Sequence record: MK295205
Source: Shigella phage vB_SflM_004
Reading direction: 5' to 3' (one strand)
DNA: 64,000 nt
Shown: in pieces, positions 1,885 to 19,323 of the stretch
How positions within the stretch are numbered: the stretch's first letter is position 1
Layout of the letters: the number at the start of each line of letters is the position of its first letter
Notes under the pieces: generated by a model
What the model was told of the DNA's origin: nothing
Seen by the model: only the letters and a program-made list of their open reading frames with translations
Database searches by the model: none
Made by a program: the position numbers and the translations under genes

Positions 1885-1897
1885 TGGTGTGATAGCT

Positions 1898-3310: not shown

Positions 3311-3323
3311 TGGTGTGATAGAT

Positions 3324-3872: not shown

Positions 3873-3882
3873 AATATCTTAA

Positions 3883-3914
3883 GAGCCTCCTTAATTGGGG
3901 GCTTTTTAATTTTT
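3883..3914 (+). terminator. rho-independent terminator, duplicate of the one at 2467
   Basis: Same GC hairpin plus T-run after the stop of ORF 3324-3872. Confidence 0.5.
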
Positions 3915-3929
3915 ATAAAATTTTATCGG

Positions 3930-5990
3930 TTGTCCCAACCTCTGGGTCACCATCATATGTGAATAAAATATCTATCCTTCTTAACAACCTTCTTAAGCTT
4001 ACTCTCTATATATAGTTATATAGTACTATATAGTATCTTAGTATCTATCTAGTGGTCTTAATAGCCCCTCTGTATAGTCCTTCTAAATATCTTAATAGCG
4101 TGGGCCCTCTAAATAGCCCTCTAAATAGCCCTCTAACAAGCCTTCTTAACAACCTATACAATCACCTTAACCATCTCTCTATAGCCTCTTAGAAGCCCCT
4201 ATACACCTCTTAATCTCTAGAAAGCCTTCTTAACAACCTATACAATCACCTTAACCATACCTCTACACCCTCTTAGAAGCTCCTATACACCTCTTAATCT
4301 CTATGTTACCTATGTTACCCTCTATAGGTGTTCACTAGGTATTACTAAGCCTCTATATAGAATATACACACTTGTGTGGTCTTACATTCATTGTTTTATC
4401 TGGGAATCTGTTTTAACAAACTTAACAGGAATATCTTTACAGACCTTATCTCACAAGGTCTAACACGGTACTAACAAGGTATCTTATAAGCCTGTTTATG
4501 CCTGTATTTTTAGAAGACTGTCTAGGTAATTATTCAGAATTTTAAAATTTTTATAAAATAGGACTATCAAGTCATTTTTTAGGGTCTTTGAAGGAACTCA
4601 AAAATATCTGTAGAAGATGTATATCTGCTTGGTAGCCCTTAACATCCCTGTAACATCTCCTTTGCAGAATTTTAAAAACCTAGAGGGAAAGTCCTGCAAA
4701 GACTTGTTGACCTTGAGTGGAATAAACATGCCTGTATATCCTTAACAATCTCTTAACAGTTACTACATCCTCTTAACATCTCTTCAGAGGTCTTAACAGA
4801 TTCTTAACAGAACTAACAAGGGCTTAACAATTTCTTAACAGTTGATACATGGTCTTTATAGTTCCCTATGTCAAATCTATCCTTAACAATCTCTTAACAG
4901 TTACTACATCCTCTTAACATCTCTTCAGAGGTCTTAACAGATTCTTAACAGAACTAACAAGGGCTTAACAGTTTCTTAACAGTTGCTACATGGTCTTTAC
5001 AGAGTTTTTATAAAATTTTATCGGGGTCTTAACAGATGACTAACAAGAGCTAACAAGTTAATTTTTAAGAGTTATTTTGTTAAGATAATTAACAAGTTCC
5101 TAACAAGTGTCTAATCTTTTTAACAAGCTATTAACACGGTCACTATCTCTTTTCTTATCGTTCCCTCTCTTTCTTAGTGATTCTCTAAATAGCCCTCTTA
5201 AAAGCTCTCTATAGCTCTTTGTAAGCTCTTTTAAGTCTCTTCCTAGTAATTACACCCCAACTGTACAGATACCTCTTTATAAGGCTTTACGGCTGTGTGG
5301 CAATATTCCTTGAACCATAGTCAAAAGGTCACAGAAGCTTTAAAGGCTATGTCAAAGACTCTTACAAGGCTTTTACGTGGTCTTAACAGAGATTTAACAA
5401 GGGGCTAACAAGTTGCTAACAAGTGCCTTATTCTTCTTATGCTGAAACTGCACATAAGATGGTTATAAGAAATTGTTAAGAAAATGTTAAGGGGGCTAGC
5501 ATTTACGTAACTTTATAGCCTCTTTTACGTAACTTTATAGCCTCTTTCACGTAACTTTGAAGCCCCTATAACATACTTTTAAGGCACTAACAAGCCCTTT
5601 TCAGATATTCACAAGATAACTAACGAGATGATAAAGCTTATACCCTTATAAGATTCTTTTAAGGCTATAGGAAGCTCTATAAAGGGCTTTTAAGGGTGAG
5701 TTAATGCAATCCCTTAAGTTAGGTTGATAAGGCTGTTATAGAGCTTTATAGAGCGTTTAAACGGTTGCCCTTCCCTTTCGGGTTATGGGCTTTTATTTAA
5801 GTTGATTTGATAAGAGGTTATAGAGTAGACTATAGAGTTATTGTTTTTAAGGTATGAGATAGATTCTATTGAATCAGGAGGATAGATTCTGGAAAGGAAA
5901 GGGAAAGGGTTGTATAGAGGCTATTACATAGACGTAAAAAAGCCCCATTTAAGGGGCTGTAAAGGTATCTGGGGCTATTTAGCCCCGTTG
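3930..5990. repeat. gene-free repeat-dense region (iteron-like direct repeats)
   Basis: About 2 kb with no ORF of 60 aa or more on either strand; dense cttaacag/ctaacaag motifs; ~80-bp unit repeated at ~4141 and ~4221; tacgtaactttatagcctctt x3 at ~5500-5570; copy of window nt 24-72 at ~4681-4729. Confidence 0.7.
4740..5000. repeat. near-perfect tandem direct repeat, ~117 bp x2 with a 141-bp period
   Basis: ccttaacaatctcttaacagttactacatcctcttaacatctcttcagaggtcttaacagattcttaacagaactaacaagggcttaaca... occurs twice in tandem. Confidence 0.8.
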
Positions 5991-5996
5991 CGTCGA

Positions 5997-6245
5997 TTAG
6001 TTGTAACCTTGTTTATTGTAGTACAGTGAGATAATCAAGTCACCCCAGTAATGATAGTGATGCTCGTCGTTTAATGCCTCTTTTACAGCGTCTTTCCAGA
6101 AGTCATCAGTAGGGTTATAATCTGGGATAACTTGCTTGATAACTGTCTTCACTAATGAAAAGCATTCATCAGTTCCACCAATATCAAATTTAACGTCCAG
6201 AGTATAACAGCCATAAGCATTGATAGTTGCGCGGATAGTTGCCAT
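5997..6245 (-). CDS. hypothetical early protein
   Basis: 82-aa ORF; ATG preceded by ggagattcgaaa RBS inside a family-1 intergenic element. Confidence 0.5.
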   Translation of the reverse strand: MATIRATINAYGCYTLDVKFDIGGTDECFSLVKTVIKQVIPDYNPTDDFWKDAVKEALNDEHHYHYWGDLIISLYYNKQGYN

Positions 6246-6313
6246 TTTCGAATCTCCTAGTTTAAGGACTTTATTTAGTGGGGAAGGTCATTCCCTCCCC
6301 GTTGATTAGTAAT
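6246..6313 (-). promoter_or_regulatory. intergenic hairpin+RBS element, family 1
   Basis: GGGGAAGGtcattCCCTCCCC hairpin followed on the minus strand by ctaaactggagattc and the next ATG. Confidence 0.5.
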
Positions 6314-6577
6314 TTACTGCATGTTGGCGTATGTTGCAAGCCTTTTTTCGTTGTATTTTGTCAGAATCTCACAAGATAAAACATCATATTTTGTAACCGC
6401 TTTGCCTTTGTCGAGGTCAAAGAATCCAAATGATTTACCATCTTTGAATCCGACAACTTCGTAAGATTCTTTAATGATTTCACCATTGAACAAATCACTT
6501 TCGATACGGTGGAATAGTGCTACATCCTCTTTGTCGGTTGCAATTTGTAAAAGTGTGTTCAGTTCGACGTGTTCCAT
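6314..6577 (-). CDS. hypothetical early protein
   Basis: 87-aa ORF; ATG with GGAG RBS from a family-1 element. Confidence 0.5.
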   Translation of the reverse strand: MEHVELNTLLQIATDKEDVALFHRIESDLFNGEIIKESYEVVGFKDGKSFGFFDLDKGKAVTKYDVLSCEILTKYNEKRLATYANMQ

Positions 6578-6638
6578 TTTGAATCTCCAGTTTAGGATTT
6601 TATTTAGTGGGGGAGGTCATCCCCCGTTGATTGACAAT
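6578..6638 (-). promoter_or_regulatory. intergenic hairpin+RBS element, family 1
   Basis: GGGGGAGGtcatCCCCC hairpin variant. Confidence 0.5.
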
Positions 6639-6959
6639 TTACAGACTTTTGATTGTCTCGTCAATATCTTTTTCAATTTCTCTTAAAGTTTTTTCTAAGT
6701 TCTTGATATTCAGCATTAACCCCTCTCCCAGTGTCTTAGCGTAACCATTTGGGCGATGGTCATAAAGCTCGATTTCTTCCACTTCGTAAAGGCTGACATT
6801 GAAGCCCCCTACCCCGTAGGCTGTGGATGAAGTGCCTTCCGGTGCTTTGTAGTACTTATTGAGATTCTTTAAAGAGCGCTCGTAAGCCATACGATAACCG
6901 TTTAACACTGTTTTAGTTGCCTTAATAGCAATCTCGTACACCTTCACACTGTACCGCAT
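6639..6959 (-). CDS. hypothetical early protein
   Basis: 106-aa ORF; weak RBS; alternative ATG at 6890; overlaps the upstream gene end. Confidence 0.4.
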   Translation of the reverse strand: MRYSVKVYEIAIKATKTVLNGYRMAYERSLKNLNKYYKAPEGTSSTAYGVGGFNVSLYEVEEIELYDHRPNGYAKTLGEGLMLNIKNLEKTLREIEKDIDETIKSL

Positions 6960-7179
6960 ACTTTTCTAAGAACAGCGGGAGGAGTTCCGCTACCGCTTGC
7001 ATGAAGTTCGATACTACAACGGTAGAAACATTACGACGATGAACGTAATAAGCCCCGTTTTCTGATTTAGTGATAGTTGCGAAATGTTCACCATTGCAAC
7101 GGAATTCATAGGTATCTTTTACAGGCTTGGACATTACATGATTTGAACGAATGTAGTTGATAGCTTGAAACTTGTTCAT
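6922..7179 (-). CDS. hypothetical early protein
   Basis: 85-aa ORF; ggagattctaaaATG start. Confidence 0.5.
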   Translation of the reverse strand: MNKFQAINYIRSNHVMSKPVKDTYEFRCNGEHFATITKSENGAYYVHRRNVSTVVVSNFMQAVAELLPLFLEKYAVQCEGVRDCY

Positions 7180-7256
7180 TTTAGAATCTCCAGTTTAGGA
7201 TTTTATTTAGTGGGGGAGGTCATCCCCCGTTGATTAGTAATTTACTTGTTTTAATT
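7180..7256 (-). promoter_or_regulatory. intergenic hairpin+RBS element, family 1
   Basis: Same consensus as 6246-6313. Confidence 0.5.
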
Positions 7257-7529
7257 TTCACCAATGATGAGCATTGCTAATGGCAACACAACAGAAACAA
7301 TCATACCGCAAAGGATAGGGTTTTTAATGATATCTAACATTTAGTGATTCTCCAGTTTAGGAAGTTGCCTTTTGAAGATACTATATAGATGTCTTTGCAA
7401 GCAATTTTTTAAGTTTATCTATAAAGAATCTTTTAAGTTAATCCCTTTTAGATAAACCCCCTCGAACAAAGTTACCAATGTCAAGGGGAGTTGTCAATAC
7501 TTTTTTAAAAGTTTTTTGTAAGTTCTTGA

Positions 7530-7871
7530 TTAACTGATGAATATTTTTTCAGGTTTTACATAGCTGATACGCTGGCTTTTTAGCAGGTCATCCCAGATTA
7601 ACGCGGCAATATGAGAATAGCCGGATTCACGTAAAAGCTTCATTGTTTTACTTCTCGTTTCAAAACGGCTTGCATAGTACTCACTATTCAGTGTCGTTTT
7701 ATTCCCTTCGTTATCTGTATGGATGATTTGCATCACTTGAAAGGGGCTTACATCCTCGCCTTTGTTCCACTGCTCAAAGTATTTTAGGCACTGCATAGGT
7801 GACATCTTATCACTGACTTGAGTTGACCAAGATGAATCTTCTTTATTGGTAATTACAGTTACATAAGCCAT
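7530..7871 (-). CDS. hypothetical early protein
   Basis: ORF 7530-7955 trimmed to the ATG at 7871 (MAYVTVITNK), which follows the element-type RBS cctaaacttgagaatctgaaa. Confidence 0.5.
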   Translation of the reverse strand: MAYVTVITNKEDSSWSTQVSDKMSPMQCLKYFEQWNKGEDVSPFQVMQIIHTDNEGNKTTLNSEYYASRFETRSKTMKLLRESGYSHIAALIWDDLLKSQRISYVKPEKIFIS

Positions 7872-8381
7872 TTTCAGATTCTCAAGTTTAGGATTATTGG
7901 TAAAGCTCTTTGTTAGGGTCTCAGAATAATAGCACCCGGGCCACATGTAGAGCACTTTAATAAACTCTAGCCATCAGTTTATTTACTGCCATAAATGTAT
8001 TATCTTTGCAGTGTAGACGACAGCTCTTCTATAAGAAAAGAAATTCTCCGTTGGATGCTATTTCTAGGCCTATCCTTGAGGCTTCCATGTTAAGGTTACA
8101 CTCTACACCTTTTAAACACCACAAGGTAGAAAGTTTTTGCATCAGTGATAACATTTTAGATTCTCCAGTTTACCCCATGTAAAGCACTTTATTAGTTATT
8201 TGTAGTAATAATATGTAAACTCATTTATCAGGAGCTAGAATTTCATCAATCAACTTTTTAGCGTCATCATTGGGAATTCTAACTTCCAGCCTCATCATTA
8301 TACTGCTTATGACTAGCCAGATAACCGCCATTCTGTGACATTAGGAGGTTGTAGATGCGTACAACTAACACCTGAGTATTT

Positions 8382-8460
8382 ATTAATCTCCAGTTTAGGA
8401 TTTTATTTAGTGGGGAGGCTATCCCTCCCCGTTGATTAGTAATTTACAGACTTTTATCAG
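8382..8460 (-). promoter_or_regulatory. intergenic hairpin+RBS element, family 1
   Basis: GGGGAGGctatCCCTCCCC hairpin copy. Confidence 0.5.
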
Positions 8461-8466
8461 GCTTGT

Positions 8467-8700
8467 CTAGTCTTTTTCAATGATAATTTCATACTGACCA
8501 TCAACACTATCAAAATAGACGCCGTCTTCATCTTCTGTCTTAAAGTAGCATTGTATGTCATCACTGGCGGGGTAGTCTTGTCTTGCTATCTGGCAAACTT
8601 GAATAGCATTTTCTTTACTTCCTGTGAACTCTTCAAGCCCTTTAAAATCGCATGAATGGCCGTTACAAATGGAAAGGATGAGATAAATGGTTGTAAGCAT
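8467..8700 (-). CDS. hypothetical small protein with hydrophobic N-terminus
   Basis: 77 aa; MLTTIYLILSICNGHSC looks like a signal peptide or TM segment. Confidence 0.45.
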   Translation of the reverse strand: MLTTIYLILSICNGHSCDFKGLEEFTGSKENAIQVCQIARQDYPASDDIQCYFKTEDEDGVYFDSVDGQYEIIIEKD

Positions 8701-8763
8701 GGTTTAAGCCCTCTAAATGGCCCTGTATGGGCCTTAAGTTGGAAGTTGGTGTCTTTGTATTGA

Positions 8764-9327
8764 TTAACCTAAAAAGTCGCTTAGATTGCGTTCTGTGATG
8801 TTTGCCGTGATTTTATCCAGCAAGTCACAAAACACGGAACTATCACCGCTATTCTGTACAATTTTCGCCATACTTAACAAATCATCGTCAACATAGCCTA
8901 AATTGCGGTTAGTTGCATCTGGTACAAAGAAAGGTGCATACATCGCACTAAATTTCGTTGAGTGTATGCTAACAATCCAATTTTTATCAAAGTATCCGGT
9001 AAAGCTGGCAATTTCGCTCATGTTGTCACAAGAATAATCATCCTCTAGCTCTTCCTCTGGGATATCCATTTCAATAACAATCACTTCCTGCGTCTCCATT
9101 TGGAAAGCTGCCGTGATAAGCCCAGACTCTAAAGCGCTTTGAATGCAGCGTTCACGGATGTAAGAATCTTCCTCATCTTCCAGACATTCCGTTTTGATAA
9201 CCTTGTTCATTGGGTAAACGTAGAAACAATCGTCCATGTAGGAGCAGTTCCAGATTCCTTCCGGCTTGTCGCCACCATTCAGCAGGTTTACAAAGTTTTT
9301 GAGGGTAGTTCCGTGATAGCATTTCAT
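8764..9327 (-). CDS. hypothetical early protein
   Basis: 187-aa ORF; canonical ggagattcaaaaATG start. Confidence 0.5.
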   Translation of the reverse strand: MKCYHGTTLKNFVNLLNGGDKPEGIWNCSYMDDCFYVYPMNKVIKTECLEDEEDSYIRERCIQSALESGLITAAFQMETQEVIVIEMDIPEEELEDDYSCDNMSEIASFTGYFDKNWIVSIHSTKFSAMYAPFFVPDATNRNLGYVDDDLLSMAKIVQNSGDSSVFCDLLDKITANITERNLSDFLG

Positions 9328-9412
9328 TTTTGAATCTCCAGTTTAGGATTTAGTGGTAAAGCTCTTTATCTGGGGCTTACTTTATCGAACTATAAGCCCC
9401 TTGTAAAGTACT
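9328..9412 (-). promoter_or_regulatory. intergenic hairpin+RBS element, family 2
   Basis: GGGGCTTActttatcgaactaTAAGCCCC hairpin plus taaactggagattc RBS. Confidence 0.5.
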
Positions 9413-9661
9413 TTATTTAACTTTTTTTGAGAAAATTAGTTTAACTGCAACCGTAGGAATCTCGTCAGCGGTTGTAACCCGCATTACTTTTTGAGTGACC
9501 AACTTATAGCCGTTCTTTGCAGCGTATGCGGTAAAACGGTTAACGTTGTAACTATAAGTTTTTGGTGTGTTATCTGGCATGTGGTAAAGAAAAGGTTTAC
9601 CCAAATTTTCTTCTTGTGTCAACAGTCGGCAGGTATCAGGGATATTGAAATAGTTCATCAT
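9413..9661 (-). CDS. hypothetical early protein
   Basis: 82-aa ORF with ATGATG start after a family-2 element. Confidence 0.5.
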   Translation of the reverse strand: MMNYFNIPDTCRLLTQEENLGKPFLYHMPDNTPKTYSYNVNRFTAYAAKNGYKLVTQKVMRVTTADEIPTVAVKLIFSKKVK

Positions 9662-9751
9662 TTTTGAATCTCCTAGTTTAAGGATTATGTAAAGCTCTTT
9701 ATCTGGGGCTTACTGTACAGACTTATAAGCCCCTTGTAAAGTACTTTTTAT
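9662..9751 (-). promoter_or_regulatory. intergenic hairpin+RBS element, family 2
   Basis: GGGGCTTA...TAAGCCCC hairpin copy. Confidence 0.5.
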
Positions 9752-9949
9752 TTAATTTTTGACAACTTTTAAAACTGCAAGATAACCTAAGCAATAAGAG
9801 TCACCGAAGAGAGTCCTACCCATGAAAGAATCCTCTTTGATATCCTTTGCAGTGACAGTTTTTTCTACGCCGTGGGAAAGGACTACATCACCAACTTTGA
9901 TATCTTTGATGTGTGTTGTTTCAATGGTTAAGCCGTTAATAATAGCCAT
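9752..9949 (-). CDS. hypothetical early protein
   Basis: 65-aa ORF; element RBS. Confidence 0.45.
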   Translation of the reverse strand: MAIINGLTIETTHIKDIKVGDVVLSHGVEKTVTAKDIKEDSFMGRTLFGDSYCLGYLAVLKVVKN

Positions 9950-10030
9950 TTTAGAATCTCCTAATTTAAGGACTTTATTTAGTAGGGAGGTTATTGCCTC
10001 CCCGTTGATGAGTAATTTAATCTATCTAAA
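9950..10030 (-). promoter_or_regulatory. intergenic hairpin+RBS element, family 1
   Basis: GGGAGGttattgCCTCCCC hairpin variant. Confidence 0.5.
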
Positions 10031-10049
10031 AATCAGTGTCAACATCTTT

Positions 10050-10457
10050 TTAAAGTTCTGCGTAGATTGCATCACAGACATCACGGAAATCATGATTTGT
10101 TAAGTTACGTTGTAACCAAGTGGCAAAGAAATCAGCGATTGCAAAATTAGCGTCATACTCGACGGATAGCCACACTTTAACAGCAAATCGGAACATCTTT
10201 AAATCAAGCTCTTTATTCATTACCTTTGATTTGCCTAACATGTCGGCCATCTCATGTTGTGCACCGTCTAGCGTGATACCGGCTGCAACGTCAGCCAATG
10301 AGTTTTTTACGCTTTCAACGTCTAAGATAATACTTTGAATCTTCCCAATAATGTTTTGCAGTGTTTCATCTGGTGCTGATGATGTGATAACATTAATCCG
10401 GTTGACGGTCAAACGTGCTTTTAAGATAGATAACTCTTTACGATTATTAATAGCCAT
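10050..10457 (-). CDS. hypothetical early protein
   Basis: 135-aa ORF; element RBS. Confidence 0.5.
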   Translation of the reverse strand: MAINNRKELSILKARLTVNRINVITSSAPDETLQNIIGKIQSIILDVESVKNSLADVAAGITLDGAQHEMADMLGKSKVMNKELDLKMFRFAVKVWLSVEYDANFAIADFFATWLQRNLTNHDFRDVCDAIYAEL

Positions 10458-10545
10458 TTTTGAATCTCCAATTTAGGATTTAGTGGTAAAGCTCTTTATC
10501 TGGGGCTTACTTTATCGAACTATAAGCCCCTTGTAAAGTACTTTA
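10458..10545 (-). promoter_or_regulatory. intergenic hairpin+RBS element, family 2
   Basis: Near-identical to 9328-9412. Confidence 0.5.
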
Positions 10546-10818
10546 TTAGGCTAAATGCAGCTTTTTGCCTTTTACTATGATGTAACTTGATGCGCTATTG
10601 CCGCATACATCTTGATAAATTCTACGCAAACGGCCTTCGTAGTATACTTTCCAGCTAGTTGGAATCTTTTTCCCGTATCCGGTAGCAGTTTTTTGGAATC
10701 CTGCAAGTTGCCAATCCAAAATGTGCTGTTCAGCTTGTAAATCCTCGAAGTGCATTACACCGTTTACATAGTGGCGTAGGGTTACGTTTAAGGTGCGACC
10801 GTTGTTAGTAGTGTACAT
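10546..10818 (-). CDS. hypothetical early protein
   Basis: 90-aa ORF; element RBS. Confidence 0.5.
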   Translation of the reverse strand: MYTTNNGRTLNVTLRHYVNGVMHFEDLQAEQHILDWQLAGFQKTATGYGKKIPTSWKVYYEGRLRRIYQDVCGNSASSYIIVKGKKLHLA

Positions 10819-10895
10819 TTTTAGAATCTCCTAGTTTAAGGATTTTATTTAGTGGGGAAGGTCATTCCCTCCCCGTTGATGTGTAATTTAACCTA
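10819..10895 (-). promoter_or_regulatory. intergenic hairpin+RBS element, family 1
   Basis: GGGGAAGGtcattCCCTCCCC copy. Confidence 0.5.
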
Positions 10896-10909
10896 TCTAA
10901 AAATCAGTG

Positions 10910-11248
10910 TCAAACACTTTGTTTTCGTTTGCTCAATTGTATATCTTGAACAATTACAGCGTGATAGTCTTTCAAGTCACTGATGTTTAAAGCATTTATC
11001 AGAGAATTATAATCATCAACTAACTGGAAATCATCTTTGAAGATGTCACTTATCTGATAGGTTTTCGCTTTATATCTGAAGCTCATCTCTAGCCGCTTTA
11101 TTTGCTCATCACTTAAACGCCCTAGAAAGCTCTCTACAAGGTTATTGCTAACTTGCTGTGTGATTGCCTTATTTGCTAGATTATAGGCTTTATATGCCTT
11201 ATATAGCGCGAAAATGGCAATGATTGCAGTGATACCAGTCATTAACAT
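10910..11248 (-). CDS. hypothetical membrane protein
   Basis: 112 aa; N-terminal hydrophobic helix MLMTGITAIIAIFALY; GAGGA RBS. Confidence 0.5.
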   Translation of the reverse strand: MLMTGITAIIAIFALYKAYKAYNLANKAITQQVSNNLVESFLGRLSDEQIKRLEMSFRYKAKTYQISDIFKDDFQLVDDYNSLINALNISDLKDYHAVIVQDIQLSKRKQSV

Positions 11249-11538
11249 GGTGTTTCCTCTTTACGTGATACTTTGCCATTTACAGTTATCTCATAGGATT
11301 CTAATAAATCGCTTTTAGACTTTACAGGACTTTTAAAAGTATCATCATAAACATTAATTTGCAATACAGGCTTTTTATACTCCCTGCAACTATTCCATAA
11401 GCAAATCACTACACGACGGCCTTTTATTTTGCCGTGTAACCATTCCATAACATCATGACTATTCCTTGATGTCTCTATAAAATCAATTTTGTTGAGTAAT
11501 TTGCTAAGGTTTTCCCTAACTTTATTTGACAATTTCAT
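11242..11538 (-). CDS. hypothetical early protein
   Basis: 98-aa ORF; element RBS. Confidence 0.5.
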   Translation of the reverse strand: MKLSNKVRENLSKLLNKIDFIETSRNSHDVMEWLHGKIKGRRVVICLWNSCREYKKPVLQINVYDDTFKSPVKSKSDLLESYEITVNGKVSRKEETPC

Positions 11539-11626
11539 CTTTGAATCTCCTAGTTTAAGGGTTAATTTGATAAATCTCTTTATCTGGGGCTTAAGATATC
11601 AACTTTTAAGCCCCCTGTAAAGTACT
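11539..11626 (-). promoter_or_regulatory. intergenic hairpin+RBS element, family 2
   Basis: GGGGCTTAagatatcaacttttAAGCCCC variant. Confidence 0.45.
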
Positions 11627-11932
11627 TTAGATATTAAAGATATTCATAACAGAATCTTTCAAGGCTTCTAAACGTTCCATTACTTCAGATTCTCCATCGG
11701 AGTTCGACACTTCCTCTTCTAATCGTGAATCTAAATCTTCCCCGTCAAGATAGCACCAATCGAAGCCATAAGCAAGAGAAAAGCTATTTAATACTGTATT
11801 ACCTTCTTTATCTTCTACCTTTGCAAATAGCACGTAGCTGTTAGCCTCTAAATCTCTTTGTAATTCATCTTGTAAGCTCTTGTAAGCCTCTATAGATGGA
11901 TTTTCGCGGCCTTGTTTAGCATAATCACTCAT
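11627..11932 (-). CDS. hypothetical strongly acidic small protein
   Basis: ORF 11627-11935 starts on TTG; first ATG at 11932; very Asp/Glu-rich (EEEVSNSDGESEVMERLEALKD). Confidence 0.45.
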   Translation of the reverse strand: MSDYAKQGRENPSIEAYKSLQDELQRDLEANSYVLFAKVEDKEGNTVLNSFSLAYGFDWCYLDGEDLDSRLEEEVSNSDGESEVMERLEALKDSVMNIFNI

Positions 11933-12203
11933 CAATTGTGAAAGGCTGTAATGCTGTGGAATTGCATATTTGTACCCGTTACGCTCTGGATTTTTAAGTT
12001 TGATTGTAACCCCGCCTTTGTGCTCATCAGTTAATTTTCAGCTTTGCATACAATGGGATGCTTCACAAATATTGAATTTTTCTTTTTGAACTTCAAAGGT
12101 AGCTTCAACAAAATTCATTTTAACCTCTCATTGTACGAATGGGGGATGTTAAGGCTATGCGTCTAAATCTTATCTAACTATAAACCCCATGTAAAGCACT
12201 TTA

Positions 12204-12461
12204 TCAGATTAAATTGTCAGTTAATGATAAGTGCATTTTATATGCCTTTTTCGTGTATACATTTGTCTTCCCGATAGTGCTTACGCATGTAAAAAGGTTT
12301 ATCGGTGAATTTTTTAGCTTCAACTGTTTATCAACCTTTACGCCCCATCTTACAGCAGATTGTTTTCCGTTGTCAATCACTTTTCCGCATAACTTTTTAG
12401 CCATAACGCGAGCGTCATCACGAGTTTTTGCAGCAATTACAACGTTTTTGATAATAGCCAT
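12204..12461 (-). CDS. hypothetical early protein
   Basis: ORF 12204-12476 starts on TTG; ATG at 12461 (MAIIKNVV) with GGAG RBS. Confidence 0.5.
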   Translation of the reverse strand: MAIIKNVVIAAKTRDDARVMAKKLCGKVIDNGKQSAVRWGVKVDKQLKLKNSPINLFTCVSTIGKTNVYTKKAYKMHLSLTDNLI

Positions 12462-12476
12462 TTTTAAGTTCTCCAA

Positions 12477-12552
12477 TTTAGGTTATTTAGTGGTAAAGCT
12501 CTTTATCTGGGGCTTACTTTATCGAACTATAAGCCCCTTGTAAAGTACTTTA
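12477..12552 (-). promoter_or_regulatory. intergenic hairpin+RBS element, family 2
   Basis: Family-2 consensus copy. Confidence 0.5.
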
Positions 12553-12933
12553 TCAGTTAATTTTGAAAATTGTCACATAGCCGTCACTGCCGATTATTTG
12601 AGACACTCCAGCTTTTTCCACTGAATAGCCCATATTTTCAAGATGATAAGCAGCATCATCATAACCATATGCGCCACCCTGATAACGTCTCTTATCGCAT
12701 CTTATCAGGTTTTTACCACGTCCTGCAAGTGCATTCAGTACGGCTTTTTCACTTGATAGCGTACCATCTAACATGGTTGCCGTGTAATGGTTGATTTTAT
12801 TCCCGTTAATATCATACTTAAAATTGAATGCGTGAACAACAATCAATTTGCCGTTAAATTTTTCATCAAGTGACTTCTCCAGTACATTGCGAAAGTTGTC
12901 TTTATTGATAAATTTCGGTGCGCGATAAGCCAT
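12553..12933 (-). CDS. hypothetical early protein
   Basis: 126-aa ORF; element RBS. Confidence 0.5.
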   Translation of the reverse strand: MAYRAPKFINKDNFRNVLEKSLDEKFNGKLIVVHAFNFKYDINGNKINHYTATMLDGTLSSEKAVLNALAGRGKNLIRCDKRRYQGGAYGYDDAAYHLENMGYSVEKAGVSQIIGSDGYVTIFKIN

Positions 12934-13022
12934 TTTTGAATCTCCTAGTTTAAGGTTAGTTAGTAAAGCTCTTTATCTGGGGCTTACTTTATCGAACTAT
13001 AAGCCCCTTGTAAAGTACTTTT
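12934..13022 (-). promoter_or_regulatory. intergenic hairpin+RBS element, family 2, overlapping the 3-prime end of the upstream gene
   Basis: Family-2 consensus; the hairpin encodes the last codons of ORF 12984-13181. Confidence 0.45.
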
Positions 13023-13181
13023 TGCAATAATTTTTATAAAATCTTTCATGGTTATTTTGTCGCTATTTGTAAGGGCTATACAGTCATTACCCATAGCAGA
13101 CTTATAGAGATAGAAGACTTTACCAATTTTTGGGTATCCGTCTAAATCTTTGTATTGTATTAAATCGTTTTCTTTAATCAT
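12984..13181 (-). CDS. hypothetical early protein
   Basis: ORF 12984-13187 starts on TTG; ATG at 13181 (MIKENDL). Confidence 0.45.
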   Translation of the reverse strand: MIKENDLIQYKDLDGYPKIGKVFYLYKSAMGNDCIALTNSDKITMKDFIKIIAKSTLQGAYSSIK

Positions 13182-13183
13182 TG

Positions 13184-13402
13184 TCAAGCCTTTTTAAATT
13201 TATCGTAGTAGTAAATCGCTGTCTGCCTTGTAAAATTCCGTGTAGTTCTTGTCAGATAGCAATTCGAATTAATAGCTGTTTCTACATAGTTGCAATAATC
13301 GGCTTCTGATATTCTAGACCATACGCCACAGATTTGCATGTAAAAACGTTTTGCCTTTGTGTTAACGTTAGTTGTAACCATCAATTCACGACTATACAGC
13401 AT
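13184..13402 (-). CDS. hypothetical early protein
   Basis: 72-aa ORF; ggagaatccaaaaATG start. Confidence 0.45.
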   Translation of the reverse strand: MLYSRELMVTTNVNTKAKRFYMQICGVWSRISEADYCNYVETAINSNCYLTRTTRNFTRQTAIYYYDKFKKA

Positions 13403-13922
13403 TTTTGGATTCTCCAGTTTAGGAAGTGGGCTGTCTTGCCCGTCTGATGCAAATATTAAATAACCATAGTCAAAGAGTCAATAGGAATTTTAAAAATATT
13501 TTTGCAAAAAACTGTAATGAAACGGGCGCACGCGACTACCACAAAACAGAAATATAATCAAGAATTATTTTTCAATCCGCTACAAATTTTTCTGTTGACT
13601 TTTATTTCCAGATGTGGTATTTTTGTGAGAAATGGCGACATCCCCACCTGCACCCACCTACCTGCACAATTCTAAAATGATTTTTCTTGCCCGACCTGAG
13701 CGGGGTCTGCACGTTTTGAAAATAAAAAAGCTCTTTGGAGATTATCTGCACAGTTTGAAAATGAATTTTCTCTTTGGAGTTCAAAATTTTCTCTACAGAT
13801 TTCTGTCCAGAGTTCTATGCAACTCTACCTGCACAATCCTGAAATGAAAAAGCCCTCCTTACCTGAAAAATTTAACCCAGATAAGAAAGGCTTAACCTAT
13901 TGTGAATATTCTACAGAGTTTC
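13403..13922. promoter_or_regulatory. gene-free control region with repeated ctacctgcacaatYctRaaatga motifs
   Basis: Motif at ~13656 and ~13826 with related ctgcaca repeats between; only short ORFs, probably spurious. Confidence 0.35.
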
Positions 13923-14717
13923 TTAGTTCTTTGCGTCTAAGAAGGTTACTTCCGGTGAAGAGAAAATTTCCTCAACATCCTCATCAGTTCTTGCATAGAT
14001 ATATGTATCTGCATCACTGCCAAATGTTACTGCAATCCTGTGATTGCTCTTTGACAGGTGGGTAACTAGAGCGTTACTTAGAGACATCTTTTCAACCGGA
14101 GGGTTACTTTGATGTATCTTGCCTTTTCTTCGTCTGAAGAGGGTAACTATATCATCTGTGAACACAACTACACCTGCAAAGTATTCTGGTTCACAGTAGT
14201 TCTTCCAACCTGAGCCAGGACTAGGTAACTTGTGGTACATCTCTCCTTCATAGACATACAGATACACATCTACACTCTTCATCACCTGATTTATGATGAC
14301 TGTGACGGCTTGAGAGTCTAGTCCACCGATACCTGCACCAATCATAGGTAACCCAACTTTCTTCAACTGATTGACTTCACAGTATCTGTTTAATTGTTTC
14401 AAAGATGATTCTAAAGCACTGTATCGGGCATCTTTACCAGTCTTAAGCTGAGTGTAAAGGTTAGCTATACGGCCTTGTTCTAAACGTGCTACAGAGAAAT
14501 TCCCTAGTAAATTTTCACAGGGTTTGTGACCTATGCCACCTGCATACAGATAAACTTCTGTATCGGTTTCATATGCTTTTGGGTAAAGTTTGGAAATCTT
14601 GTCAGCGATACCTGCACCCATTAAGTTCATACAGTTGCAACCGTGGCCAATGATATCAAACTTACCTTTATCAAATGCGGAGAAGATATCCCCATTGATG
14701 ATTTTTACAATACCCAT
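13923..14717 (-). CDS. macro-domain protein (ADP-ribose binding/processing) with a C-terminal extension of ~100 aa
   Basis: N-terminal IINGDIF...GHGCNCMNLMGAGIA and second Gly loop PMIGAGIGGL match macro-domain ligand-binding loops; GGGAGAGA RBS. Confidence 0.6.
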   Translation of the reverse strand: MGIVKIINGDIFSAFDKGKFDIIGHGCNCMNLMGAGIADKISKLYPKAYETDTEVYLYAGGIGHKPCENLLGNFSVARLEQGRIANLYTQLKTGKDARYSALESSLKQLNRYCEVNQLKKVGLPMIGAGIGGLDSQAVTVIINQVMKSVDVYLYVYEGEMYHKLPSPGSGWKNYCEPEYFAGVVVFTDDIVTLFRRRKGKIHQSNPPVEKMSLSNALVTHLSKSNHRIAVTFGSDADTYIYARTDEDVEEIFSSPEVTFLDAKN

Positions 14718-19244: not shown

Positions 19245-19323
19245 CTTATTACTCTCTCTTGTTAGTTAATAAATCATTTTGTAAGGCTATTCTAAGGGGC
19301 TTTGAAGCCCCTTGTCAAACACC

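What the first reader, a model, noticed from the sequence alone, without database searches (positions are those of the whole stretch)
5997..13402. Array of about 20 small early-type genes, each preceded by one of two stereotyped hairpin+RBS intergenic elements
Between 6.0 and 13.4 kb nearly every minus-strand ORF (60-190 aa, none with a recognisable enzymatic motif) is preceded by a 65-90-bp element: family 1 has a GGGGAAGG...CCCTCCCC hairpin and family 2 a GGGGCTTA...TAAGCCCC hairpin, each followed by ctaaactggagattc(a/t)aaaATG. There are at least 12 copies, and some hairpins overlap the 3-prime end of the upstream gene. The architecture resembles the promoter/stem-loop cassettes of phage hyperplastic regions that drive modular gene shuffling, and such regions typically hold host-takeover and anti-defence genes. 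The elements could act as RNA processing sites, terminators/attenuators or recombination modules.
Basis: seen in the sequence. Interest (0 to 1): 0.55.

Follow-up and report, generated by a model that had tools for sequence, protein, structure and literature searches.

The report
Promoter–hairpin gene cassettes in Felix O1-like phage
A 7.5-kb block of small early genes of unknown function in a Felix O1-like phage is built from repeated promoter + hairpin + ribosome-site units, which mark the points where related phages gain, lose and swap single genes; this is the same design already described for T4-like phages, now found in a different phage group.

Summary
The window is a Felixounavirus. 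Between 5997 and 13481 (minus strand) lie 6 full family-1 and 6 full family-2 elements plus 5 degenerate or variant copies, and none elsewhere in the 64 kb.

Both families read as host sigma-70 promoters fused to a GC-rich stem-loop and a standard leader/Shine-Dalgarno module.
- Family 1: TTGACA-17-TAAATT, with the hairpin about 3 nt after the predicted start.
- Family 2: TTTACA-17-TAnnnT, with the hairpin inside the spacer and -10.

Across about 60 related loci the promoter hexamers keep their spacing while loops vary, and the family-2 inner stem covaries. Related genomes keep one gene order but differ by whole [element+ORF] cassettes, and homology breakpoints concentrate in the elements (p≈4e-9).

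All ORFs are of unknown function. This matches the PeSL (promoter-early stem-loop) cassettes of T4-like phages and is a new member of that kind, in the Ounavirinae. The Felix O1 genome paper listed both sequences only as unexplained direct repeats. Promoter activity, the hairpin's role and recombination at the elements are inferred from sequence, not shown. A RegB-type mechanism was tested and rejected.

The parts
13842..13891 (-). Intrinsic terminator ending the upstream unit (after the macro-domain gene 13923-14717); homologue of Felix O1 terminator t13
   Evidence: Sequence; same sequence listed as t13 in PMC3185647 Table 2
13453..13481 (-). Strong sigma-70-type promoter TTGACT-17-TAATAT that opens the block
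13403..13441 (-). Variant leader: small hairpin GGGC-aagaca-GCCC (13428-13441), then acttCC + SD module TAAACTGGAGAATC (13408-13421), before gene 13184-13402
   Evidence: the same hairpin type is joined to family-1 promoters in L014/L054
12934..13021 (-). Family-2 element: box 1 at 13004-13021, -35 TTTACA at 13009-13014, -10 TAAAGT at 12986-12991, hairpin 12979-13007, box 2 at 12963-12978, SD module 12938-12952
12462..12551 (-). Family-2 element: -35 at 12539-12544, -10 TAAAGT at 12516-12521, hairpin 12509-12537, box 2 at 12493-12508, SD module 12467-12480
12121..12202 (-). Degenerate family-2 element: TTTACA-17-TAAGAT is kept (12167-12195), but the hairpin is lost and the SD is non-standard; it precedes a split gene
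   Evidence: (z = +0.76)
11539..11628 (-). Family-2 element: -35 at 11616-11621, -10 TATCTT at 11593-11598, hairpin GGGGCTTAA/TTAAGCCCC at 11586-11614, box 2 variant at 11570-11585, SD module 11543-11557
10819..10913 (-). Family-1 element: -35 TTGACA at 10908-10913 (contains the stop codon of 10910-11248), -10 TAAATT at 10885-10890, hairpin 10854-10874, leader ACTAAAT.., SD module 10824-10838
10458..10544 (-). Family-2 element: -35 at 10532-10537, -10 at 10509-10514, hairpin 10502-10530, box 2 at 10486-10501, SD module 10462-10475
9950..10042 (-). Family-1 element: TTGACA at 10037-10042, TAAATT at 10014-10019, hairpin GGGGAGG/CCTCCCT at 9984-10003, SD module 9954-9968
9662..9747 (-). Family-2 element: -35 at 9735-9740, -10 TACAGT at 9712-9717, hairpin 9705-9733, box 2 at 9689-9704, SD module 9666-9680
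9328..9414 (-). Family-2 element: -35 at 9402-9407, -10 TAAAGT at 9379-9384, hairpin 9372-9400, box 2 at 9356-9371, SD module 9332-9345
8382..8469 (-). Family-1 element: TAGACA at 8464-8469 (contains the stop of 8467-8700), TAAATT at 8441-8446, hairpin 8412-8430. Its SD module (8384-8397) is followed by no ATG. It is the left edge of a ~495-bp segment (8385-7890) absent from the relatives compared
8155..8190 (-). Truncated family-2 element: box 1 (8173-8190) fused directly to the SD module (8159-8172), before the 41-aa ORF 8029-8154
7872..7958 (-). Degenerate family-2 element: box 1 at 7941-7958, TCTACA-17-TATTCT, weak hairpin, box 2-like AAAGAGCTTTACC, SD module with TTGAG at 7877-7890; before gene 7530-7871
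   Evidence: (z = +0.38)
7341..7365 (-). Variant leader acttCC + SD module (7346-7359) before the 29-aa hydrophobic ORF 7251-7340. The segment ~7257-7390 is absent from the relatives compared
7180..7267 (-). Family-1 element with a weak -35 (TCATTG): TAAATT at 7239-7244, hairpin GGGGGA/TCCCCC at 7212-7228, SD module 7184-7197
6578..6664 (-). Family-1 element: TTGACG at 6659-6664, TAAATT at 6636-6641 (its TAA is the stop codon of 6639-6959), hairpin 6609-6625, SD module 6581-6594
6246..6339 (-). Family-1 element: TTGCAA at 6334-6339, TAAATT at 6311-6316 (its TAA is the stop codon of 6314-6577), hairpin 6280-6300, SD module 6250-6264
5931..5958 (-). Canonical intrinsic terminator (AGCCCC-ttaaat-GGGGCT + TTTTT) closing the block; homologue of Felix O1 t23
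   Evidence: PMC3185647 Table 2
13184..13402 (-). ORF 72 aa, phrog_5293, unknown function (cluster g21)
12984..13181 (-). ORF 65 aa, phrog_14219, unknown function (g31); no element upstream, always found with g21
12553..12933 (-). ORF 126 aa, phrog_4495, unknown function (g4); preceded by family 2 in 15 and family 1 in 12 related copies
12204..12461 (-). ORF 85 aa, phrog_5089, unknown function (g7)
11627..12120 (-). Split gene: 27-codon ORF 12037-12120 plus ORF 11627-11932, which matches residues 70-170 of phrog_4190; homologue of the intact 170-aa gene (g15) of relatives
11242..11538 (-). ORF 98 aa, phrog_4401, unknown function (g6)
10910..11248 (-). ORF 112 aa, phrog_4375, unknown function (g2); overlaps g6, no element between them, found together in 27 of 29 cases
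10546..10818 (-). ORF 90 aa, phrog_3436, unknown function (g0)
10050..10457 (-). ORF 135 aa, phrog_4327, unknown function (g3)
9752..9949 (-). ORF 65 aa, phrog_3623, unknown function (g12); variable cassette
9413..9661 (-). ORF 82 aa, phrog_9030, unknown function (g26); variable cassette, found on either side of g12 in different genomes
8764..9327 (-). ORF 187 aa, phrog_3303, unknown function (g8)
8467..8700 (-). ORF 77 aa, phrog_4640, unknown function (g5); no family element upstream, found with g8 in 26 of 28 cases
8029..8154 (-). ORF 41 aa, matches residues 1-40 of the 65-aa phrog_13570 (truncated)
7530..7871 (-). ORF 113 aa, phrog_4318, unknown function (g1)
7251..7340 (-). ORF 29 aa, hydrophobic, matches residues 1-28 of the 46-aa phrog_7482
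6639..7179 (-). Split gene: 6922-7179 matches residues 1-82 and 6639-6959 matches residues 78-176 of phrog_4725 (frameshift or sequencing error); intact as a 176-aa gene (g10) in relatives
6314..6577 (-). ORF 87 aa, phrog_7022, unknown function (g24); variable cassette
5997..6245 (-). ORF 82 aa, phrog_4559, unknown function (g13); last gene of the block
19289..19318 (-). Outside the block: rIIA/rIIB junction promoter TTGACA-18-TAGAAT, with the hairpin GGGGCT-tcaa-AGCCCC filling the spacer (same design principle)
   Evidence: weak family-2 hit at the same junction in Felix O1

Best explanation
The block 5931-13481 is one early transcription unit of a Felix O1-like phage. It opens with a strong promoter, closes with a canonical terminator, and is subdivided into self-contained expression cassettes. 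Each cassette has three parts: (i) a host sigma-70 promoter, (ii) a GC-rich stem-loop, and (iii) a standard leader ending in a Shine-Dalgarno (SD) mini-hairpin and ATG, followed by one or two small ORFs of unknown function.

There are two layouts. In family 1 (TTGACA-17-TAAATT) the hairpin begins 10 nt after the -10. The transcript should therefore start about 3 nt before it and carry a 5'-terminal stem-loop. I infer that this stabilises the mRNA, and that the hairpin also forms in read-through RNA from upstream.

In family 2 (A-rich box + TTTACA-17-TAnnnT) the 5' arm lies in the spacer and the -10 spans the loop and the 3' arm. The element's own transcript should start at the A just after the hairpin. 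The hairpin is then made only in RNA coming from the upstream cassette, where it would act as an attenuator or a 3'-end structure that insulates neighbouring cassettes.

Because the same 60-95-bp elements recur in one orientation every 250-650 bp, homologous recombination between copies deletes, inserts, duplicates and re-orders cassettes without breaking expression signals. Crossovers fall especially in the leader/SD module that both families share.

Shown from sequence: the anatomy, conservation of the hexamers and their spacing, stem covariation, cassette-level variation and breakpoint enrichment. Inferred: promoter activity, transcription start points, what the hairpins do, and that recombination occurs at the elements.
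For: Identity and boundaries:
- The region matches 256 phage records, almost all Felix O1-like (Escherichia, Salmonella, Shigella and Citrobacter phages), and none covers 80% of it.
- A terminator and a strong promoter lie upstream, and a terminator lies downstream.

Promoters:
- The consensus scan lists TTGACA/TTGACG/TAGACA-17-TAAATT at four of the six family-1 copies and TTTACA-17-TAnnnT at seven family-2 copies.
- Among 135 distinct family-2 copies from about 60 loci, TTTACA occurs in 134. TAnnnT lies exactly 17 nt downstream in 93% and 18 nt in 6%, against 0-4% at the other offsets tested. At least 12 different hexamers fill that slot, so only T1, A2 and T6 are held.
- Among 110 distinct family-1 copies, the -10 is TAAATT or TAAAGT in 108. 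A -35 match of at least 4/6 lies exactly 17 nt upstream in 106, although that hexamer sits in different upstream genes. The distance from the -10 to the stem is always 10 nt.
- The 20 nt upstream of the -35 are 75-77% A+T, against 62% background.

Hairpins:
- Folds are stable, and there are 50 and 23 sequence variants that all still pair.
- In the family-2 inner helix, 5 of 10 pairs change on both sides. The covariation score is 0.127 against 0.056 for shuffles (0 of 500 reach it), and all slid registers score worse.
- Native hairpins beat chimeras made from halves of different copies (0 of 500 permutations).
- Family 1 is more stable on the gene strand (p = 1.4e-3).

Conservation in another genus:
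- Erwinia phage phiEa21-4 keeps TTTACA-17-TAGTAT/TAATCT while its stem changes from GGGG/CCCC to GGTG/CACC. Its SD mini-hairpin co-varies too, from UCC..GGA to CCUU..AAGG.

Modularity:
- 33 of 57 unique breakpoint clusters lie in the 22% of sequence covered by elements (p = 4e-9), including most clusters with five or more ends.
- Gene order is conserved with cassettes present or absent. g12/g26 swap order, g32 and g60 occupy two positions, and g7 is duplicated.
- The same gene is preceded by family 1 in some genomes and family 2 in others (g4: 12 versus 15).
- Gene pairs without an element between them stay together.
- At nucleotide level, the promoter half stays with the upstream gene and the exchange lies in the shared leader/SD.
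- Block size ranges from 5.2 kb with 7 elements to 8.8 kb with 17.

Confinement, timing and precedent:
- The elements occur only in this block, in the window and in the rest of the Felix O1 genome.
- Felix O1 homologues are transcribed at 5-25 min, and that phage encodes no RNA polymerase (PMC3185647).
- The same architecture, including hairpins between the -35 and -10, overlapping the -10, or just downstream of it, was shown experimentally to have promoter and terminator activity in T4-like phages (PMC2839356).
Against: - No transcript mapping exists for any Felix O1-like phage in the searchable literature, so no promoter or RNA end has been observed.
- Overall, promoter-like matches in the region are not far above shuffles (32 against 23.9 ± 5.2). 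The case rests on position-specific conservation, not on the count.
- None of the hairpins has a U tract, so they fail a canonical terminator test. Attenuation is an analogy with one tested PeSL.
- Family 1 covariation is weak (Mann-Whitney p = 0.17), and family 2 shows no strand bias, so an RNA-level role for family 2 is not established.
- One family-1 copy has a poor -35 (7262-7267).
- Breakpoints at gene boundaries are expected for any viable recombinant. The enrichment shows that cassettes are the unit of exchange, not that crossovers physically occur inside the elements.
- Breakpoint clusters are not fully independent, because the genomes share ancestry.
- The strict conservation of box 2 (AGATAAAGAGCTTTAC) downstream of the predicted start is not explained by this model.
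Confidence: 0.75

Rival explanations
1. RNase III-type processing sites. In read-through RNA, family 2 folds into a long irregular hairpin: the 9-10-bp inner stem, a 3x3 internal loop, and about 10 bp formed by box 1 (AAAGUACUUUA) with box 2 (UAAAGAGCUUU). This resembles the inter-genic RNase III sites of T7 early mRNA. Cleavage would leave a protective 3' hairpin on the upstream message and a downstream 5' end at about the same base as the predicted promoter start. This could coexist with the promoter function.
For: The extended structure is the minimum-energy fold in the window copies (-22.7 to -24.3 kcal/mol, z = -3.8 to -4.4) and in 61 of 63 distinct variants. It would explain why box 2, which lies downstream of the predicted start, is nearly invariant in both Felixounavirus and the Erwinia phages. 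The resemblance to T7 RNase III sites comes from my own knowledge of that system.
Against: In the outer helix, 7 of 10 pairs never vary and none changes on both sides, so there is no covariation support. Box 1 is already constrained as the A-rich upstream region plus -35. Boxes 1 and 2 are also direct repeats of a near-palindrome, which would pair by default. Family 1 has only a 6-8-bp stem, too short for RNase III. No Rfam family matches.
Confidence: 0.2
2. The near-palindromic boxes AAAGnnCTTT that flank the family-2 promoter core are operators for a phage-encoded or host DNA-binding protein. One box overlaps the -35 and the other lies at about +3 to +14. The protein would switch this promoter class off, or on, during the early-to-middle transition. 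Family 1 lacks the boxes and would escape this control.
For: Both boxes are nearly invariant across 114 trimmed distinct copies and are conserved in the Erwinia phages, where box 1 becomes AAAGAGCTTTACA, almost identical to box 2. AAAGTACTTT is a perfect 10-bp palindrome (read directly from the sequence). The distance from box 1 to box 2 is fixed, at 58 nt in nearly all copies. The Felix O1 paper states that temporal control in this phage is unexplained.
Against: No candidate regulator was identified. The small ORFs tested have no significant DNA-binding domain hit. Felix O1 RT-PCR timing does not separate genes behind family 1 from genes behind family 2: ORFs 16 and 20 (family 2) and ORFs 21 and 22 (family 1) all peak at 5 min. 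Conservation of box 1 is already explained by promoter function.
Confidence: 0.12
3. The hairpins are simply intrinsic (Rho-independent) terminators between genes, as annotated in the GenBank record of phage XTG1.
For: XTG1 annotates five family-1 hairpins as Rho-independent terminators. One PeSL stem-loop in a T4-like phage reduced downstream expression as strongly as rrnB T1 (PMC2839356).
Against: The terminator scan finds none of them. On the gene strand the stems are followed by ACTAAAT.. or AGATAAAG.., not a U tract, whereas the true terminator at 5941-5958 is found. The XTG1 features lie on the strand opposite to the genes. Full termination after every gene would conflict with the lack of a recognisable promoter in some elements.
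Confidence: 0.1
4. The uniform GGAG Shine-Dalgarno sequences are targets of a T4 RegB-like endoribonuclease that inactivates early mRNAs. Phage Mushroom annotates a 'T4 RegB-like' gene upstream of the homologous block.
For: Nearly every standard element carries GGAG at a fixed distance from the ATG. Mushroom gene 127 is labelled 'endoribonuclease, T4 RegB-like'.
Against: The window homologue (17456-18004) has no RegB Pfam match, only a sub-threshold SLT hit. It is a homologue of T4 Vs.1 (E = 1e-13), while T4 RegB finds nothing in the window (best E = 4.8). In the sampled rows, the 1138 phage records with a RegB homologue are T4-like genomes of about 160-175 kb, and no Felixounavirus name appears in the organism counts shown. 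In the Erwinia phages the SD is AAGGA, not GGAG.
Confidence: 0.03
5. The conserved boxes are promoters for a phage-encoded RNA polymerase or sigma factor, or the repeats are selfish mobile elements (MITE-like).
For: Family 2 has a long invariant box followed by GGGG, which superficially resembles single-subunit RNA polymerase promoters.
Against: Felix O1 encodes no RNA polymerase and no known modifier of host promoter specificity (PMC3185647). The variable-interior TAnnnT at exactly 17 nt after TTTACA is the sigma-70 signature. Every copy lies in one orientation, at a fixed distance from a start codon, in a single block. That pattern does not fit a transposing element.
Confidence: 0.03

Closest known systems
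PeSL (promoter-early stem-loop) cassettes of T4-like phages RB49/phi1, T4/PST and KVP40/nt-1 (Arbiol et al. 2010, PMC2839356; Comeau et al. 2014, PMC4122927)
   Same: Both are short intergenic repeats made of an AT-rich stretch, a sigma-70-like -35/-10, a GGGG..CCCC-type stem-loop and an SD + ATG. The stem-loop sits between the -35 and -10, overlaps the -10, or lies just downstream of it. Both are concentrated in a hyperplastic region of small early ORFs of unknown function. In both, insertions, deletions and replacements between related phages begin and end at the elements.
   Different: The host phage is an Ounavirinae myovirus of about 88 kb, not a T4-like phage. No sequence homology to T4-like PeSLs was tested or is claimed. 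Here the elements fall into two or three sharply stereotyped sequence families that share a fixed 3' leader with an SD mini-hairpin, and family 2 has a second conserved box downstream of the predicted start. All copies lie in a single block rather than several. Promoter and terminator activity and mini-circle formation, shown for PeSLs, are untested here.
The '57-bp' and '39-bp' direct repeats reported in the Felix O1 genome paper (Whichard et al. 2010, PMC3185647)
   Same: They are the same sequences. The 57-bp repeat CTTTACATGGGGCTTAAAAGTCTGTAAAGTAAGCCCCAGATAAAGAGCTTTACCACT is family 2, and the 39-bp repeat TTGACACTGGTTTTTAGATAGATTAAATTACACATCAAC is the promoter half of family 1. They lie between Felix O1 genes 15/16, 19/20, 18/19 and 20/21.
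   Different: That paper listed them only as direct repeats with two copies each. It did not recognise them as promoters or hairpins, did not include them among its predicted promoters, and stated that temporal control of transcription was unknown.
RNase III processing hairpins between T7 early genes (from my own knowledge of T7 biology)
   Same: An irregular hairpin of about 20 bp with an internal loop, located between consecutive early genes on a polycistronic RNA (the family-2 extended fold).
   Different: T7 sites are not promoters and are not repeated as recombination modules. There is no covariation support for the outer helix here, and family 1 is too short.

Membership tests
PeSL (promoter-early stem-loop) cassettes | Sigma-70-like -35 and -10 hexamers at canonical spacing | tested here: met
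   Family 1: TTGACA-like hexamer, 17 nt, then TAAATT in 106 of 110 distinct copies. Family 2: TTTACA-17/18-TAnnnT in 99% of 135 distinct copies.
PeSL (promoter-early stem-loop) cassettes | [quoted passage not shown] | tested here: met
   75-77% A+T (50% A) in the 20 nt upstream, against 62% A+T (34% A) background.
PeSL (promoter-early stem-loop) cassettes | Stable stem-loop, often GGGG..CCCC, placed between the -35 and -10, overlapping the -10, or just downstream of the -10 | tested here: met
   In family 2 the stem lies in the spacer and overlaps the -10. In family 1 it starts 10 nt after the -10. PeSL classes as described in PMC2839356.
PeSL (promoter-early stem-loop) cassettes | Shine-Dalgarno sequence and start codon of the downstream gene at the 3' end of the element | tested here: met
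   15 SD modules lie 3-5 nt from an ATG.
PeSL (promoter-early stem-loop) cassettes | Concentrated in a hyperplastic region of small non-essential ORFs of unknown function | tested here: met
   confined to this block; all ORFs of unknown function; the block varies from 5.2 to 8.8 kb and 9 to 20 ORFs. Non-essentiality is inferred from absence in some genomes.
PeSL (promoter-early stem-loop) cassettes | Insertions, deletions and replacements between related phages begin and end at the elements | tested here: met
   (p = 4e-9).
PeSL (promoter-early stem-loop) cassettes | Demonstrated promoter activity and attenuation/termination by the stem-loop in vivo | not testable with these tools
   Requires reporter fusions or transcript end mapping. 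None has been published for this phage group.
PeSL (promoter-early stem-loop) cassettes | Formation of mini-circles by recombination between neighbouring elements | not testable with these tools
   Requires inverse PCR on infected cells or virions.
PeSL (promoter-early stem-loop) cassettes | Occurrence in T4-like (Straboviridae) genomes, the only group in which PeSLs have been described | tested here: not met
   the host phage is a Felixounavirus (Ounavirinae). This is a matter of where the class has been described, not a structural criterion, so I file it as a new member outside the original host group.
Intrinsic (Rho-independent) terminator | GC-rich stem followed directly by a U tract on the transcribed strand | tested here: not met
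   none of the 17 elements is called, while the true terminator at 5941-5958 is.
RNase III processing site (T7 early type) | About two helical turns of mostly double-stranded RNA, supported as a conserved structure | tested here: inconclusive
   family 2 can form about 20 bp; the outer 10 bp never co-vary. Family 1 is too short.
T4 RegB target sites | A RegB endoribonuclease encoded by the phage | tested here: not met
Any curated RNA family (Rfam 15) | Match to a covariance model | tested here: not met
   no match with E ≤ 1 in 5800-13700.

The most novel reading that the evidence does not exclude
Family 2 may be more than a promoter placed next to a hairpin. It could be a structured regulatory switch in which several features act together: a covarying hairpin holds the first half of the -10 in its loop, the length is fixed at 58 nt, and two copies of the near-palindrome AAAGnnCTTT flank the core. 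Two forms are possible. The promoter's activity could depend on hairpin or cruciform extrusion, or on a protein bound to the two boxes, giving a phage-wide early-to-middle switch. Alternatively, the element could be a dual promoter and RNase III site that gives the same mRNA 5' end whether the RNA is initiated there or processed from read-through. Either would be a mechanism not described for PeSLs.
Probability: 0.15. Interest if true: 0.65.

Novelty: new member of a known kind. Interest (0 to 1): 0.4.

Why it matters
Felix O1 is a classic Salmonella typing phage, and its relatives are widely used in biocontrol and phage therapy. Yet its genome paper stated that it is unknown how its transcription is organised and timed.

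This analysis gives explicit, testable predictions for the most variable part of the genome: about 15 early promoters, their start sites, and the RNA structures next to them. It also extends the PeSL idea, in which standard promoter/stem-loop linkers let single accessory genes be exchanged without breaking expression, from T4-like phages to an unrelated myovirus subfamily spanning two genera. That suggests the design is a convergent or general solution for accessory-gene turnover.

In practice, the elements mark natural cassette boundaries. These could be used to delete, screen or replace the unknown early genes, which are candidates for host-takeover or anti-defence functions, and to insert payload genes with native expression signals.

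Tried and rejected
1. RegB mechanism. The idea came from the uniform GGAG and the 'T4 RegB-like' label in phage Mushroom. I rejected it: the labelled gene is a Vs.1 homologue and no RegB homologue is present. The label probably derives from the old name 'protein in vs-regB intergenic region'.

2. Canonical terminators. Rejected, because there is no U tract. The XTG1 'terminator' features are these hairpins annotated on the wrong strand.

3. T4 MotA-box reading of AAAGTGCTTTA. Considered by inspection: TGCTTTA matches the MotA box, but it lies 19 nt from the -10 instead of about 12, whereas TTTACA lies at 17. I dropped it. This rests on my own knowledge of T4 middle promoters.

4. Phage RNA polymerase promoter. 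Rejected (and the pattern).

5. Fixed-anchor stem pair counts. These were blurred by differences in stem length and gave only a modest signal. I replaced them with native-versus-chimera folding and a gap-free alignment.

6. Strand asymmetry as a test of RNA-level function. Informative for family 1 only.

7. Rfam: no match.

8. Pfam and PHROGs on all ORFs: no function.

9. Literature searches for PeSL-like elements or transcript mapping in Felix O1-like phages found nothing relevant. Several of these searches were loosely targeted, so absence of a report is not proof that none exists.

Full report
**What the window is.** The region 5900-13500 matches 256 phage records. Almost all are Felix O1-like myoviruses of Escherichia, Salmonella, Shigella and Citrobacter (genus Felixounavirus, subfamily Ounavirinae). 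No record covers 80% of it, which already indicates a mosaic region (taxonomy). All ORFs between 5997 and 13402 are on the minus strand. Upstream in the same direction lie rIIA, rIIB, a Vs.1 homologue, polynucleotide kinase and a macro-domain gene. The macro gene is followed by a terminator at 13842-13891, the Felix O1 t13 homologue. Then come about 400 bp of non-coding DNA and a strong promoter, TTGACT-17-TAATAT, at 13453-13481. The block ends at a canonical terminator at 5941-5958. It is therefore a bounded transcription unit, corresponding to Felix O1 ORFs 15-23.

**Check of the observation.** The repeats are real and are not due to chance. AAACTGGAGAWTC occurs 9 times against 0.28 expected, and the family-2 box 9 times against 0.23 expected. 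Direct-repeat families of up to 93 nt are found. Profile models built from the window copies hit 6 family-1 and 8 family-2 sites, all between 6244 and 13024 on the minus strand and nowhere else in the 64 kb. The same models hit Felix O1 coordinates 1-45,000 only at 8.6-12.06 kb, plus one weak hit at the rIIA/rIIB junction. Together with the window, this covers a whole genome. The junction catalogue gives six full family-1 copies, six full family-2 copies, two degenerate and one truncated family-2 copy, and two variant leaders. The hairpins fold at -14 to -24 kcal/mol. Several elements overlap the upstream gene: stop codons lie inside the -10 TAAATT, inside the -35, or inside the family-2 3' arm.

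**Anatomy.** Family 1, in 5'-to-3' order on the gene strand, consists of:
- a -35 (TTGACA, TTGACG, TTGCAA or TAGACA);
- a 17-nt spacer;
- TAAATT;
- ac..ATCAAC;
- a 6-8-bp G-rich stem;
- the leader ACTAAATAAA(A/G)TCC;
- the SD module TAAACT(A)GGAGATTC;
- 3-5 nt, then ATG.

Family 2 consists of:
- an A-rich box 1, AAAGT(A/G)CTTTACA, whose last six bases are the -35 TTTACA;
- a 9-bp stem, GGGGCTTAT..GTAAGCCCC, with an 11-nt loop;
- box 2, AGATAAAGAGCTTTAC;
- a short leader;
- the same SD module.

The two families thus share their 3' third. A third promoter/hairpin type (TAATAT with GGGC..GCCC) opens the block. In relatives the promoter, hairpin and SD parts occur in other combinations, so the elements are themselves mosaics of three modules.

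**Promoters.** The consensus scan lists four of the six family-1 copies and seven family-2 copies as sigma-70-like, with a 17-nt spacer. The overall number of promoter-like matches in the region is not remarkable (32 against 23.9 in shuffles). The argument therefore rests on conservation across copies harvested from 63 related loci. In 135 distinct family-2 copies, TTTACA occurs in 134. TAnnnT occupies the position 17 nt downstream in 93% and 18 nt in 6%, against 0-4% at the other offsets tested. At least 12 different hexamers fill the slot (TAAAGT, TATCTT, TAAGAT, TAGTAT, TACCTT and others). Only the three positions that matter most for sigma-70 are fixed, which is the signature of a -10 element. 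In 110 distinct family-1 copies the -10 is TAAATT or TAAAGT in 108. A -35 match of at least 4/6 lies exactly 17 nt upstream in 106, although it is embedded in the 3' ends of different genes. The 20 nt upstream of both -35 elements are A-rich. A further example of the design lies outside the block: TTGACA-[AGGGGCTtcaaAGCCCC]-T-TAGAAT between rIIA and rIIB. Felix O1 encodes no RNA polymerase of its own (PMC3185647), and its homologues of these genes are expressed maximally at 5 or 25 min.

**Hairpins.** Fifty family-2 and 23 family-1 hairpin variants all retain a stem. On a gap-free alignment of 29 distinct family-2 cores, including three distinct copies from an Erwinia phage, 5 of the 10 inner-stem pairs change on both sides. 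The covariation score exceeds all 500 shuffles, and all slid registers are worse. Native hairpins are more stable than chimeras of halves from different copies. Family 1 shows weaker covariation but is more stable on the gene strand than on its complement (p = 1.4e-3), which suggests an RNA-level role. Family 2 shows no strand bias.

The geometry differs between families. In family 1 the stem always begins 10 nt after the -10. A transcript started 7-8 nt after the -10 would therefore carry a stem-loop about 3 nt from its 5' end. From my own knowledge of E. coli mRNA decay, that arrangement protects against 5'-end-dependent RNase E attack. In family 2 the 5' arm fills the spacer and the -10 spans the loop and 3' arm, so the element's own transcript should start at the A just after the stem. 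The hairpin then exists only in RNA read through from the upstream cassette. No hairpin is followed by a U tract.

**SD module.** The Shine-Dalgarno sequence sits in a 3-4-bp mini-hairpin, UCC[UAAACU]GGA. Its other allele, UCCU[UAAACU]AGGA, has a T and an A inserted on opposite sides. The two insertions are perfectly linked: 172 versus 104 distinct copies, with no mixed forms. In the Erwinia phage the SD is AAGGA and its partner becomes CCUU. This is suggestive covariation for a weak SD-masking structure, but it rests on few independent events.

**Modularity.** BLAST of the block against the related loci gives 57 unique breakpoint clusters. Of these, 33 lie in the 22% of sequence covered by elements (binomial p = 4e-9). 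Most clusters with five or more ends lie in elements or within a few nt of their edges. The main exception is 13181-13201, the element-free junction after the first gene. Clustering all ORFs shows one conserved gene order in which [element+ORF] units come and go:
- g4, g7, g12, g24, g26, g36, g39 and g100 are variably present.
- g12 and g26 occur in both orders.
- g32 and g60 occupy two different positions.
- g7 is duplicated in one genome.

The same gene is preceded by family 1 in some genomes and family 2 in others (g4: 12 versus 15; g26: 5 versus 6; g8: 4 versus 24). Gene pairs with no element between them stay together (g6-g2 in 27 of 29; g8-g5 in 26 of 28). At nucleotide level, the promoter half of an element stays with the upstream gene whatever follows, and the exchange point lies in the shared leader/SD. 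The block ranges from 5.2 kb with 7 elements (Felix O1) to 8.8 kb with 17. Family 2 also occurs in 29 Erwinia phage records at 77-84% identity. Those genomes are reported as only about 52% identical overall to a Felix O1-like phage (PMC4472883).

**Gene content.** All 20 ORFs fall in PHROG families of unknown function, and none has a significant Pfam domain. Two genes are split in this genome, and two short ORFs are truncated relative to their families. The segments 8385-7890 and about 7390-7257 are absent from the relatives compared.

**Interpretation and comparison.** The features match, one by one, the PeSL cassettes described in T4-like phages. Those comprise an AT-rich stretch, sigma-70 hexamers, a GGGG..CCCC stem-loop in the same set of positions relative to the promoter, and an SD + ATG. 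They are located in a hyperplastic region of ORFs of unknown function, and indels between related phages end at the elements (PMC2839356; PMC4122927). For PeSLs, promoter activity, attenuation and mini-circle formation were shown experimentally. None of these can be tested here.

The Felix O1 genome paper reported both sequences only as direct repeats with two copies each. It did not count them among its predicted promoters. The XTG1 record annotates the family-1 hairpins as terminators on the wrong strand. I found no paper linking these elements to PeSLs or mapping transcripts in this phage group. I therefore classify the finding as a new member of a known kind.

**What remains unexplained.** Three things:
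- the near-invariance of box 2, which lies downstream of the predicted family-2 start;
- the fixed 58-nt length from box 1 to box 2;
- why the hairpin must be embedded in the promoter.

Box 1 and box 2 can pair to extend the family-2 stem to about 20 bp, like an RNase III site. They are also direct repeats of a near-palindrome, which could be protein-binding sites. The outer helix never co-varies, so the data do not decide between these.

**Verdict.** The mechanism is well grounded in sequence and comparative evidence but has not been tested experimentally. Interest is moderate.

Noticed in passing
window 3873-5996: A 2.1-kb non-coding gap between the convergent late (+) and early (-) units is packed with repeat arrays: 141 nt x1.9 (4737-4999), 84 nt x2.1 (4131-4303), 22 nt x2.6 (5502-5558), 12 nt x3.6 (4104-4146), and many CTTAACA/CTAACAAG words spaced 11 nt apart (5362-5430). 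It may be a replication origin, a packaging site or a genome-end region. Felix O1 has a similar 1.6-kb gap between ORF23 and ORF24.
   Followed up: partly
window 13650-13850 (minus strand): Four copies of an approximately 20-nt motif, ATTTTCAnAAnTGTGCAGrTA, lie between the upstream terminator and the strong promoter at 13453-13481 that opens the block, some spaced about 83 nt apart. They could be binding sites for a regulator controlling entry into the block.
   Followed up: no
window 1420-2446 and 2846-3872 (+ strand): The ORF list shows the same pair of overlapping ORFs (154 aa + 197 aa) twice, 1426 nt apart, which suggests a tandem two-gene duplication in the late region. Sequence identity between the two copies was not checked.
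   Followed up: no
window 6639-7179 and 11627-12120: Two genes that are intact in relatives (phrog_4725, 176 aa; phrog_4190, 170 aa) are each split into two ORFs here. This is either a frameshift or a sequencing error. The second also has a decayed upstream element (hairpin lost), as if the whole cassette were degenerating.
   Followed up: partly
window 17456-18004; L004 15758-16306 (phage Mushroom gene 127): The GenBank label 'endoribonuclease, T4 RegB-like' is very probably an annotation error. The protein is a homologue of T4 Vs.1 (E = 1e-13) with a weak SLT/lysozyme-like Pfam hit, and shows no similarity to T4 RegB.
   Followed up: yes
window 19289-19318 (minus strand): The rIIA/rIIB junction carries a promoter, TTGACA-18-TAGAAT, whose spacer is filled by the hairpin GGGGCT-tcaa-AGCCCC. 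The promoter-with-embedded-hairpin design is therefore not limited to the variable block.
   Followed up: partly
L001 (phage XTG1) 1985-2005, 3146-3166, 4700-4720, 5565-5585, 8177-8197: The GenBank record annotates the family-1 hairpins as Rho-independent terminators on the strand opposite to the genes.
   Followed up: yes
L065 (Erwinia phage phiEa21-4) 11136-11510: Two copies of a further promoter type, TTGACA-18-TAAAAT, in which the whole -10 lies in the loop of GAGGGG..CCCCTC and is followed by ATCAAC. That motif precedes the hairpin in Felixounavirus family 1, so the same parts occur in a different order.
   Followed up: no
window 7251-7340: A 29-aa strongly hydrophobic peptide (MLDIIKNPILCGMIVSVVLPLAMLIIGEN) has its own SD module and lies on a ~130-bp segment absent from the relatives compared. 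It may be a small membrane peptide cassette.
   Followed up: no
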